A stretch of DNA of 64,000 nt, taken from assembly GCF_056746865.1 (NCBI RefSeq), contig NZ_CM163382.1; one strand, written 5' to 3'. The position numbers are program-made. Below are positions 3,001 through 6,000 of this stretch, piece after piece. Position 1 is the stretch's first letter; every line of letters begins with the position of its first letter.

Positions 3001-6000
3001 TTTCTGACGAATTCCGGGGAGCGAGGGAACAGTTCAGGGAAATCGTTACTCAGTCGAGAAACACCGCTTTTCAGGCTAACTTACTGAAAACCTCAGAAGA
3101 ATTTGCCATCATATTCCGCAAGGAGTTAACTTCAAATATTGTCAATCGCCTCGTTGCAGATATTTCTGTAGTAACGAACCTGAATGGTTTTCAGGAACTG
3201 GGGTTCGGGAAACTGAATGCGTTATCCGAAGGACTCAAAAAACTTCTCTTTAAAGTCATCATGCGAAAACGTAATATCCTCACCTATGAGTTCAGGGGAA
3301 ATAAAATAATCAGGGATTTATATGACTTTTACAATGAAGGAGAGAATTATAAATTTCTGCCTCCTGAACTTAAATTCACCTTACCCCAACCAGATTCCTG
3401 TATATTTGAAATCAGCAAAAAACGAGCAGTGGTTGACTATATTTCAGGTATGATGGATACATTTGCAGTCAAGGAATGGGAAACTCACTGTCTGAAGTAA
3501 CACTGCCGATTACCAGAGGCGCATATTTTCCCGTTATGGTTATTGCGCCTTTATTCCGTTTCGGTGACAGGTTATTTTAAATATTCTGGAAATGCGTTGA
3601 TGGGCAAGAACAATTACCCTGAAAATAAATACAGGAAATGGTTTTCCACAGCAATAACATATCTTATTACAGGTGGTTTGTGCTGGTATATGTTGTGGGC
3701 ATCCGCTATATCTCATTATACTGTTTTACAAAATACGGTACCTGAATGGACAACATATTTTTGCACCGGTATAATCACCGGATCTCTTTCTTTTATTTAT
3801 GCATTTTATATCCGCACCTTTAACAGAACATTAAAGTCTTTATTAAATGCATTCACGGGGGGATTTTGTCTTGGATTTATACTGAGTCCTGATGAATCCC
3901 CTAATGATTTTGATAAAAATCATTAGGGGATTCATCAGTGCTTGACCTTGTTTAAAAGCTGTAATATCGCAATTTACTAACTCAATATCTAAATCCATTG
4001 GCTTGGATGTACCTCCTGCCTCAAGGAAGCTTTTTGAAAGCTGTCCAAAATCAATAGACTGATCAGCTGATTTCTGAGAAATGCTGCATGGAGCATCAAC
4101 AACAGTTCCGTTAAAAGTTACTTTACCCTGCCCCTGTGGAATAGTTGGAGCAGCATTTACACCAAAAGACACCACTGCCATAGCTACCGCACCGGCAATA
4201 ATCGACTTAATCATAAATAACAACCTCTTTTTCATTACTGAACACACCAGAGATATCTGGCAATTTAAAATGACCCGATTACCTTTAATAACCAGATCAA
4301 TACAAATAATATTCTCGTATTTTCAGGGCAGGTTATTTATCGACAGAATACTGATATAACCTGTCTGCTTTCTGATAAGGACTTCTTTTTATCTGTAAGA
4401 TAACTCCGGAATGCCATCATTCAGTCAAATGCCGACGACTCATCTGTATAATAAGGTGCAAGCCTTGCTGCAAGAGCATTCAGCCGTATAAGTCTCCCAA
4501 GTGTTGTACTGAAATACCCATTATTCATCTGGTATTTCTCGCAGACCTCCTTACGGGAGTGCCCACCTACCAGATAGTCCTTCATAGCCAGAATGACCCT
4601 GTCACTGTGAATAGAAGAAATACCTATCAGTAAAAAAAAATGCATTTCAGACATAGAGCCGGGCAACAGTACGCTCTCGCGTATATTCAGCAAAAACGCA
4701 TTTCCTGACCGACTGATGACTTCATGATGCGCCATGTTTCCCCCTTCTGTCGGGCCCCTGGATATATGCTTCCGGCCCGGAAATACTCTTCACGCAATAA
4801 GTTAAATTTAGTTTTTTATGTTGTAAATATTGATTTAAACGATCTTTTAACCCACAAAATAAAATTAAACTAGAATAAAACACTAATAATAAGAATGCGC
4901 TCAGATAAAAACATCATAGTAAATTGAATTTACAGCATAAAAGATCGTCTAAATGCATTTTTACGGACTTTCTTTTCACAGAAAAATAAAACGCAAAATG
5001 TGATACATATCAAATAAAGCAAATAAAAAGCAAATTCACTAAATTGCACAAATAAAGCAAACACAGCAAACACAGCAAACACAGAGAATAAAAATACCTT
5101 TCCGTTGATAACAGAAAGCATGATTTTTATTATTCGAAGAAACTTTGTTACAGTGAGATGAGTGAATATATGAAGAATGAAATACTGGAATTTCTGAACA
5201 GGCATGATGGAGGGAAAACGGCAGAAATTGCGGAGGCGCTGGCGGTAACGGATTACCAGGCCCGCTATTACCTGTTATTACTGGAAAAAGCAGGTATGGT
5301 TCAGCGCTCACCATTAAGACGGGGCATGGCAACATACTGGCTTCTGAAAGGAGAGAAGCAGGCGGGGCAGAGTTGTTCACTTTGCAAACTCTGCCGACCA
5401 GTGGTGATCCGTTCGGTGACGGGATTGGCAAGGTAGCCGGGTCCAGCCTGCACGCCGGCGTGGCGGCCAGGGCCGATGAACGCAAGAAGCTCGAACGGCT
5501 GTGCCGGTACATCAGCCGCCCGGCGGTATCCGAGAAGCGGCTGTCGTTAACACGAGGCGGCAACGTGCGCTACCAGCTCAAGACGCCGTACCGGGACGGC
5601 ACCACGCACGTCATTTTCGAACCATTGGATTTCATTGCAAGGCTGGCCGCCCTGGTACCGAAGCCCAGAGTCAACCTAACCCGCTTCCACGGGGTGTTCG
5701 CACCCAACAGTCGGCACCGGGCGTTGGTCACGCCGGCAAAACGGGGCAGGGGCAACAAGGTCAGGGTGGCTGATGAACCGGCAACACCAGCACAACGGCG
5801 AGCGTCGATGACATGGGCGCAACGGCTCAAGCGTGTTTTCAATATCGACATCGAGACCTGCAGCGGCTGCGGCGGCGCCATGAAAGTCATCGCCTGCATT
5901 GAAGACCCTATAGTGATCAAGCAGATCCTTGATCACCTGAAGCACAAAGCCGAAACCAGCGGGACCAGGGCGTTACCCGAAAGCCGGGCGCCACCGGCTG

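What the first reader, a model, noticed from the sequence alone, without database searches (positions are those of the whole stretch)
5057..5084. Nonamer tandem repeat in the pap regulatory region
(GCAAACACA)x3 lies just upstream of papI in a region where regulator-binding sites are expected; copy-number change could alter switch behaviour.
Basis: seen in the sequence. Interest (0 to 1): 0.25.

Follow-up and report, generated by a model that had tools for sequence, protein, structure and literature searches.

The report
Variable 9-bp repeat in PapB site
The three tandem GCAAACACA units are real and lie in the known main binding site of the PapB regulator upstream of papI; their number varies from 1 to 14 among E. 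coli genomes, but any effect on the fimbrial switch is untested and here the pap operon is only a remnant.

Summary
A perfect (GCAAACACA)x3 lies at 5057-5083, between a CRP-like site and the predicted papI promoter in a papI-papB intergenic region. This is where a review places PapB binding site 1, the highest-affinity site. The units continue an older, degenerate array of 9-bp modules that each carry an AAA/AAT triplet at the same position.

Copy number is not fixed. Among 5426 complete E. coli genomes, exact-copy-number searches found:
- 1 copy at 1188 loci
- 2 copies at 5
- 3 copies at 197
- 4 copies at 68
- 5 copies at 31
- 6 copies at 3
- 7 or more at 5 (up to 14)

Five loci with 3, 4, 6, 8 and 14 copies have an identical 395-bp intergenic core. 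So the array changes faster than the sequence around it, most likely by replication slippage.

In this window the pap operon is a relic. papA is cut after about 270 bp. papI is fused to an ISCR2-floR resistance module. papB and the regulatory region are intact. This relic occurs in 187 genomes, with 3, 4, 5 or 8 copies.

The site is already known, and the 3-copy allele is present in CFT073 and ATCC 11775. The population-level variability is a modest finding that I could not locate in the papers available here. Its effect on switching is untested.

The parts
5057..5083 (.). Perfect tandem array (GCAAACACA)x3, the finding itself. It is a variable-number repeat with 1-14 copies across E. coli genomes.
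   Evidence: sequence, TRF, shuffles; copy-number census
5030..5092 (.). Eight consecutive 9-bp modules in one register, each with AAA or AAT at positions 3-5 (GCAAATTCA, CTAAATTGC, ACAAATAAA, GCAAACACA x3, GAGAATAAA). This is the inferred core of PapB binding site 1. Two further AAAT-type modules at 5012-5029 lie 2 bp out of register.
   Evidence: [quoted passage not shown]
4996..5017 (.). CRP (CAP)-like site AAATGTGATACATATCAAATAA, centre 5006.5. It is 133.5 bp from the predicted papI start here, and 115.5 bp (11.0 helical turns) in one-copy alleles. It is about 215.5 bp from the expected papBA start.
   Evidence: the Weyand 2001 title ('CAP from -215') cited
4943..4946 (.). GATC-distal Dam site
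   Evidence: GATC at 4841 and 4943, 102 bp apart
4841..4844 (.). GATC-proximal Dam site
5105..5133 (+). Predicted papI promoter (TTGATA, 17-bp spacer, TATTAT; 10 of 12 consensus positions). The inferred start near 5140 places the repeat at about -57 to -83.
   Evidence: consensus scan only; the transcription start was not measured
5158..5436 (+). papI-derived ORF of 92 aa. PapI residues 1-74 are retained, and the last 3 residues (STT) are replaced by 18 aa read from ISCR2 sequence. The junction is at 5378/5379. RefSeq names it WP_001349530.1, FaeA/PapI family regulator.
4421..4735 (-). papB, intact (104 aa). The protein is identical to WP_000930062.1 in all compared alleles, whatever their copy number.
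3939..4214 (-). 5' remnant of papA (about 270 bp). Homology to the intact operon ends at 3939, next to a short IS10/ISVsa5-like terminal sequence at 3902-3938.
5379..6026 (+). 3' fragment of the ISCR2 (IS91-like) transposase gene that interrupts papI. It is followed by a DUF3363/relaxase-like ORF and floR.

Best explanation
The nonamer array is an expansion of one 9-bp module in the middle of PapB binding site 1. This site is the upstream activating region between the CRP site and the papI promoter, where the PapB regulator binds with its highest affinity and oligomerises. The site is built from modules with a 9-bp period, each carrying an A/T triplet at a fixed position. One module, GCAAACA(C/T)A, has been duplicated head-to-tail, and the perfect copies now gain and lose units by replication slippage. 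This gives alleles with 1 to 14 units in natural E. coli. Each added unit (inferred) supplies one more in-register PapB contact. It also moves the CRP site and Lrp sites 4-6 nine bp further from the papI promoter, while leaving their distance to the papBA promoter unchanged. The most likely consequence (inferred, untested) is a modest shift in PapB occupancy and papI activation, not an on/off effect. In this window the array sits in a decayed pap remnant that can express only PapB, a PapI fusion and a PapA stub. Any effect here would therefore act through these regulators in trans, for example PapB cross-talk with type 1 fimbriae.
For: Shown here:
- The array is perfect and non-random.
- It lies between a CRP-like site and the predicted papI promoter, at about -57 to -83. 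This falls inside the -40 to -90 interval that review PMC11316696 gives for PapB site 1.
- Eight successive 9-mers share an AAA/AAT triplet in one register.
- Copy number across 5426 genomes: 1 copy at 1188 places, 2 at 5, 3 at 197, 4 at 68, 5 at 31, 6 at 3, 7 or more at 5. Fetched loci verify 2, 4, 5, 6, 7, 8 and 14 copies, and every unit in the multi-copy arrays is perfect.
- The 395-bp intergenic core is identical in loci with 3, 4, 6, 8 and 14 copies.
- Remnant copies share 2360 bp with 1 SNP, and the repeat is their only indel.
- Within the 187 genomes that share the unique papI::ISCR2 junction, copy number is 3 (153), 4 (8), 5 (1) or 8.
- PapB protein is identical in all alleles.

From my own knowledge, not verifiable here: Xia et al. 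1998 (Mol Microbiol 30:513) described PapB sites as containing a 9-bp repeat with T/A triplets at conserved positions, bound through the minor groove by about 8-10 PapB molecules.
Against: - No binding or expression data are available for any allele.
- The papI start is predicted from a consensus scan that found no more promoter-like sites than shuffled sequence gives.
- The 9-bp/T-A-triplet definition of PapB sites could not be checked, because the primary papers are not held.
- The array keeps varying in a remnant with no fimbrial genes, which fits neutrality as well as function.
- Alleles with 3-5 copies rotate the CRP site by about 150-260 degrees relative to the papI promoter. That would be disruptive if helical phasing mattered, yet they are common in intact operons.
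Confidence: 0.7

Rival explanations
1. The array is a functionally neutral minisatellite. It is slippage-prone sequence that happens to lie in the regulatory region. PapB binding and switching tolerate the insertions, and copy number drifts without selection.
For: The array varies (3, 4, 5, 8 copies) in the decayed remnant, where no fimbriae can be made. The range is broad (1-14) on an identical backbone. About 79% of pap loci work with a single unit.
Against: It lies at the centre of the highest-affinity PapB site. Each unit preserves the AAA triplet register of the neighbouring modules. Two-copy alleles are strikingly rare (5, against 1188 and 197), which simple neutral stepwise drift from one copy does not predict. 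However, clonal structure was not controlled for.
Confidence: 0.3
2. The array is a selected contingency locus. It would be a hypermutable rheostat that sets PapB occupancy and hence the rate of Pap phase switching and cross-talk with fim. That would add a genetic layer on top of the Dam/Lrp epigenetic switch.
For: Copy number changes without any substitution in the surrounding 395 bp. Expansion is seen on at least three distinct backbones: window type, SCU-387 with 21 mismatches, and CFT073 with 6. Non-remnant loci cluster at 3-5 copies (44, 60, 30) rather than spreading evenly.
Against: No phenotype data exist. The clustering may simply reflect clonal lineages. Most pap operons have one unit and cannot slip. 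A 9-bp unit with 3-5 copies should mutate far more slowly than classical mono- to tetranucleotide contingency tracts.
Confidence: 0.2
3. The repeat acts through something other than PapB. It could add phased A-tracts that change intrinsic DNA curvature or H-NS/Lrp binding, or it could simply act as a spacer between CRP and the papI promoter.
For: The region is AT-rich with phased AAA tracts. H-NS is reported to bind AT-rich pap DNA (PMC12388093). Each unit changes the CRP-to-papI spacing by 0.86 helical turn.
Against: The six mapped Lrp sites lie around the two GATC sites, on the papB side of the CRP site (reviews). The interval is specifically assigned to PapB.
Confidence: 0.1
4. The copy-number differences are assembly or sequencing artefacts.
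For: Tandem repeats can be mis-assembled. The 14-copy allele (126 bp) rests on a single assembly.
Against: Arrays of 27-72 bp are shorter than ordinary reads. The same counts recur in many independent complete genomes (68 with four copies, 31 with five). All differences are exact multiples of 9 with perfect units.
Confidence: 0.02

Closest known systems
PapB binding site 1 of the pap operon (Forsman et al. 1989 EMBO J; Xia et al. 1998 Mol Microbiol), as summarised in PMC11316696
   Same: It has the same position, between the CRP site and the papI promoter and 40-90 bp upstream of papI. It sits next to the same, sequence-identical PapB regulator. It has the same 9-bp periodic A/T-triplet architecture.
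   Different: The commonest allele (404 bp between start codons, which equals the 416 bp quoted in PMC9820224 if papI is counted from its second ATG) has a single GCAAACATA unit. The window has three perfect GCAAACACA units, and other genomes have up to 14. I did not find copy-number variation at this site described in the papers I could read.
Promoter-upstream simple-sequence contingency loci, for example the TAAA tract upstream of Neisseria meningitidis nadA and the TA tract between hifA and hifB in Haemophilus influenzae (from my own knowledge)
   Same: It is a perfect tandem repeat in a regulatory region, its unit number varies between closely related strains, and that variation changes the spacing or number of regulator contacts.
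   Different: The unit is 9 bp rather than 1-4 bp. Copy numbers are low. Neither a high within-clone switching rate nor any effect on expression has been shown. The host system already has a separate epigenetic (Dam/Lrp) phase switch.
Orphan or plasmid-borne papB paralogues acting in trans (PMC7734786)
   Same: An intact papB persists outside a functional adhesin cluster, next to mobile resistance DNA, and could modulate host adhesins.
   Different: Here the gene is a full-length chromosomal papB with its native regulatory region and a PapI fusion. It is not the 272-bp papB/pefB-like plasmid gene of pMB2. No phenotype was tested here.

Membership tests
PapB binding site 1 (pap upstream activating region) | Lies between the CRP site and the papI promoter, about 40-90 bp upstream of the papI start | tested here: met
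   The repeat is at about -57 to -83 from the predicted start, and the CRP-like site is at 4996-5017. The definition comes from PMC11316696. The start site is predicted, not measured.
PapB binding site 1 (pap upstream activating region) | 9-bp periodic modules with A/T triplets at a conserved position (Xia et al. 1998; definition recalled from memory) | tested here: met
   Eight consecutive in-register 9-mers at 5030-5092 carry AAA/AAT at positions 3-5. The primary paper could not be read.
PapB binding site 1 (pap upstream activating region) | A cognate PapB regulator is encoded next to the site | tested here: met
   papB at 4421-4735 matches PF03333 at E=1e-36. It is identical to WP_000930062.1 of intact operons.
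PapB binding site 1 (pap upstream activating region) | PapB physically protects the sequence, and binding activates papI/papBA | not testable with these tools
   This needs footprinting and reporter assays.
pap-type Dam/Lrp phase-variation switch | Divergent papI and papB genes, two GATC sites 102 bp apart, and a CRP site about 215 bp from the papBA start | tested here: met
   GATC sites are at 4841 and 4943. The CRP centre at 5006.5 gives -215.5 to the expected papBA start. The intergenic region is 99.8-100% identical to intact operons.
pap-type Dam/Lrp phase-variation switch | The switch controls a complete fimbrial operon (papA to papG) | tested here: not met
   In this window papA is cut at 3939 and the downstream pap genes are absent. 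papI is fused to ISCR2 at 5378/5379.
Variable-number tandem repeat / contingency locus | Perfect head-to-tail copies whose number differs between otherwise near-identical sequences | tested here: met
   Loci with 3, 4, 6, 8 and 14 copies have 0 mismatches in the 395-bp core. See the census.
Variable-number tandem repeat / contingency locus | High-frequency, reversible length change within a clone | not testable with these tools
   This needs fluctuation assays or deep amplicon sequencing.
Variable-number tandem repeat / contingency locus | Unit number changes expression or phenotype | not testable with these tools
   This needs isogenic reporter fusions.

The most novel reading that the evidence does not exclude
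The 9-bp array is a genuine mutational rheostat in the highest-affinity PapB site. Slippage would add or remove PapB-binding modules and thereby reset the threshold of the PapB/PapI feedback loop. That would change the OFF-to-ON rate of P-fimbrial phase variation and the strength of PapB cross-talk with type 1 fimbriae. A heritable genetic tuning layer would then sit on top of the classic epigenetic switch, and it would remain active even in orphan papB remnants carried with resistance islands.
Probability: 0.2. Interest if true: 0.6.

Novelty: already known. Interest (0 to 1): 0.3.

Why it matters
The pap switch is the textbook model of epigenetic phase variation, and strain-to-strain differences in switching rates are only partly explained. 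A length polymorphism of 1 to 14 units inside the main PapB site, on otherwise identical regulatory DNA, is a simple candidate cause. It can be tested directly with isogenic reporter fusions. It also matters in practice. PCR or sequence typing of the papI-papB region will give products that differ in length by multiples of 9 bp, and annotation pipelines can call spurious ORFs across long arrays. For this window itself the finding is ordinary: a known binding site in a decayed operon.

Tried and rejected
**Literature**
- I tried to obtain the primary description of PapB sites and of pap regulatory variation. Xia 1998, Xia and Uhlin 1999, Xia 2000 and Holden 2007 are not held.
- Eight full-text searches found no accessible statement on 9-bp repeats in PapB sites or on copy-number variation. 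Hits for '9 bp' referred to the fimS inverted repeats.

**Other readings of the sequence**
- RNA element: Rfam gave only a meaningless snoRNA hit at E=0.61.
- Coding sequence: the ORFs that overlap the array (4930-5205 and 5039-5563, both minus strand) are artefacts of the AT-rich intergenic region.
- NCBIfam has no model for PapB or PapI, so Pfam was used instead.

**Method**
- Summary identity and coverage counts cannot give copy number, because BLAST joins split pieces into places with 100% coverage (hit H1). I replaced this with exact-n synthetic queries and calibrated E-value cut-offs.

**Dropped idea**
- I first thought multi-copy alleles were strictly linked to the PapI L62 variant. CFT073 has 3 copies with F62, so I dropped this.

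Full report
**Observation.** The sequence at 5057-5083 is a perfect (GCAAACACA)x3. Base 5084 (G) begins a fourth, incomplete unit. Tandem Repeats Finder reports it as period 9, 3.2 copies, 100% matches. It also reports a looser period-9 array over 5011-5079. No dinucleotide-preserving shuffle of the window matched the 27-mer, even with three mismatches allowed. The 9-mer occurs only at these three positions in 64 kb. The observation and its coordinates are confirmed.

**Surroundings.**
- On the minus strand, 4421-4735 encodes a 104-aa PapB (PF03333, E=1e-36). It is identical to the PapB of intact pap operons.
- On the plus strand an ORF starts at 5158 with the PapI sequence (PF04703).
- The 422-bp intergenic region has two GATC sites exactly 102 bp apart, at 4841 and 4943, and a CRP-like site AAATGTGATACATATCAAATAA centred at 5006.5.
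- A consensus scan finds a papI promoter candidate, TTGATA-17-TATTAT, at 5105-5133. The scan as a whole found no more sites than shuffled sequence gives, so this is a prediction only.
- With a start near 5140, the repeat lies at about -57 to -83.
- The CRP centre lies 215.5 bp from the position where a papBA start would be expected, which matches 'CAP from -215' (Weyand 2001 title, cited).

**What the site is.**
[quoted passage not shown] It says this is the site of highest affinity, and that PapB oligomerises there between the papI start and the CRP site, citing Forsman et al. 1989. The repeat lies inside that interval.
- I cut the sequence into 9-mers in the register of the unit. Eight consecutive modules at 5030-5092 each have AAA or AAT at positions 3-5: GCAAATTCA, CTAAATTGC, ACAAATAAA, GCAAACACA x3, GAGAATAAA.
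- From my own knowledge, Xia et al. 1998 described PapB sites as a 9-bp repeat with T/A triplets at conserved positions, bound through the minor groove by about 8-10 PapB molecules. I could not read that paper here.
- On this reading, the perfect units are tandem duplications of one module in the centre of site 1.

**Variation across isolates.**
- The intergenic region matches 1534 places in 1244 of 5426 complete E. coli genomes, all but one on chromosomes. Match lengths are 404, 405, 422, 431, 440 and 449 bp.
- An alignment of representatives shows that the length classes of 404, 422, 431, 440 and 449 bp differ only in the number of units.
- To count every locus I built queries of 30 nt left flank + n units + 45 nt right flank. 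I set each E-value limit between the score of a full-length match with five substitutions and that of an n±1 match, which pays a 22.5-point gap cost (calibrated). All returned hits were single pieces with 100% coverage and a span equal to the query length.

| Copies (n) | Count |
|---|---|
| 1 | 1188 places in 958 genomes, nearly all with the variant unit GCAAACATA |
| 2 | 5 records |
| 3 | 197, including one CFT073 operon |
| 4 | 68 |
| 5 | 31 |
| 6 | 3 |
| 7 or more | 5 |

- Four of the five loci with 7 or more copies were fetched. They hold 7, 8, 8 and 14 units, and all units are perfect.
- These classes sum to 1497 of the 1534 places.
- The type strain ATCC 11775 carries the 3-copy allele in an intact operon.
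- The commonest allele is 404 bp between the annotated start codons. That equals the 416 bp quoted in PMC9820224 if papI is counted from its second ATG, 12 bp downstream.

**The array changes faster than its surroundings.**
- With the repeat removed, the 395-bp intergenic core is identical in the window (3 units), APEC E123 (4), 22AR0750 (6), CT30 (8) and N68 (14).
- Expansion also occurs on other backbones. SCU-387 (7 units) differs at 21 core positions and CFT073 (3 units) at 6.
- The rarity of two-copy alleles is unexplained.

**The locus in this window is a relic.**
- Homology to the intact ATCC 11775 operon runs only from 3939 to 5378, with 2 mismatches in 1440 bp.
- papA is cut after about 270 bp, next to a short IS10/ISVsa5-like terminal sequence. 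I identified that end from memory of the IS10 inverted repeat.
- papI loses only its last three codons. It reads on into an ISCR2 fragment to give a 92-aa protein. After the fragment come a DUF3363/relaxase-like ORF, floR and, in matching genomes, tet(A).
- The unique papI::ISCR2 junction is present in 187 genomes, all on chromosomes.
- Of these, 153 have three units, 8 have four, 1 has five and at least 2 have eight. About 22 are unresolved. One of them, MS1679, lost the repeat through an IS1A-associated deletion.
- Remnant copies share 2360 bp with a single substitution, and the repeat is their only indel.
- Subtracting the remnants leaves 44, 60 and 30 non-remnant loci with 3, 4 and 5 units.

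**Mechanism.**
- Shown: the position, the module register, the copy-number polymorphism, and the identity of the flanking DNA and of PapB.
- Inferred: the copies arise and change by replication slippage, and each unit adds one in-register PapB contact.
- Each unit also adds 9 bp (0.86 helical turn) between the CRP/Lrp 4-6 block and the papI promoter. The papBA side is unchanged.
- At one unit the CRP centre is 115.5 bp (11.0 turns) from the predicted papI start. Three to five units rotate it by roughly 150-260 degrees, and eight units restore the phase.
- Alleles with 3-5 units are common in intact operons. So either strict CRP-papI phasing is unimportant, perhaps because a PapB oligomer fills the interval, or these alleles switch differently. 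Neither can be decided here.
- In this window the only possible outputs are PapB, the PapI fusion and a PapA stub. PapB-family proteins can act in trans on other adhesins, including from orphan genes on mobile DNA (PMC7734786; PMC11316696). Nothing of this was tested here.

**Rivals.**
- A neutral minisatellite remains quite possible. The array keeps varying where no fimbriae can be made.
- A selected contingency locus is the most interesting reading, but it has no direct support.
- Action through curvature or H-NS is possible but less specific.
- Assembly artefact is very unlikely, given the short arrays and recurrent counts.
- An RNA or coding role is rejected.

**Comparison, novelty and verdict.**
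- The element is PapB site 1 of a pap regulatory region, a known site.
- The window's 3-copy allele is also present in the reference strains CFT073 and ATCC 11775.
- It works like a regulator-binding array with variable module number, and it resembles promoter-upstream repeat tracts of other pathogens. However, the defining features of a contingency locus (a high within-clone rate and a phenotypic effect) could not be tested.
- The population census (1-14 units, about 21% of loci multi-copy, variation on identical backbones) is a modest finding that I could not locate in the accessible literature. The key primary papers were not available, so prior description cannot be excluded.
Interest is low to moderate.

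Noticed in passing
window 5158-5436 and 5379-8372: papI is fused in frame to an ISCR2 fragment at 5378/5379. PapI residues 1-74 are kept, and STT is replaced by 18 aa. A DUF3363/RlxS-like ORF (6057-6941) and floR (7158-8372) follow. The identical junction is in 187 of 5426 complete E. coli genomes from poultry, pigs, humans, dogs, a panda and a frog, always on the chromosome.
   Followed up: partly
window 3902-3945: papA is truncated at 3939, next to ...GGGGATTCATCAG, which looks like an IS10/ISVsa5 terminal inverted repeat (identified from memory). Some related genomes still have a full ISVsa5 there (L002, L008). The window and L005/L006 instead have a dGTPase-family gene (2247-3500, with similarity to anti-phage dGTPase models) about 440 bp away.
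   Followed up: partly
copy-number census: Two-copy alleles are very rare (5 records, two of them the same strain) compared with one copy (1188 places) and three copies (197). Among loci without the ISCR2 junction the mode is four copies.
   Followed up: no
L010:1311-1601 (strain N68, 14 copies): RefSeq annotates a 96-aa minus-strand ORF named 'papI protein' (WP_481984157.1) across the expanded repeat. This is very likely a spurious gene call created by the long array.
   Followed up: no
window 5098-5118: An inverted repeat CTTTCTGTTATCAACGGAAAG (9 pairs, minus strand) overlaps the predicted papI -35 hexamer and was flagged as terminator-like. It might be a protein-binding palindrome or chance.
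   Followed up: no
L013 (strain MS1679) 619-1380: An IS1A element abuts the remnant. Everything to the left of window position about 5112 is deleted there, including the repeat, papB and the GATC sites, so only the papI fusion remains.
   Followed up: yes
PapI residues 17 and 62 in L004, L007, L011, L012, L018: The PapI variants D17/N17 and F62/L62 occur in different combinations with repeat number. For example, CFT073 has 3 copies with N17 and F62, and ATCC 11775 has 3 copies with D17 and L62. Repeat expansion is therefore not tied to one PapI allele.
   Followed up: partly
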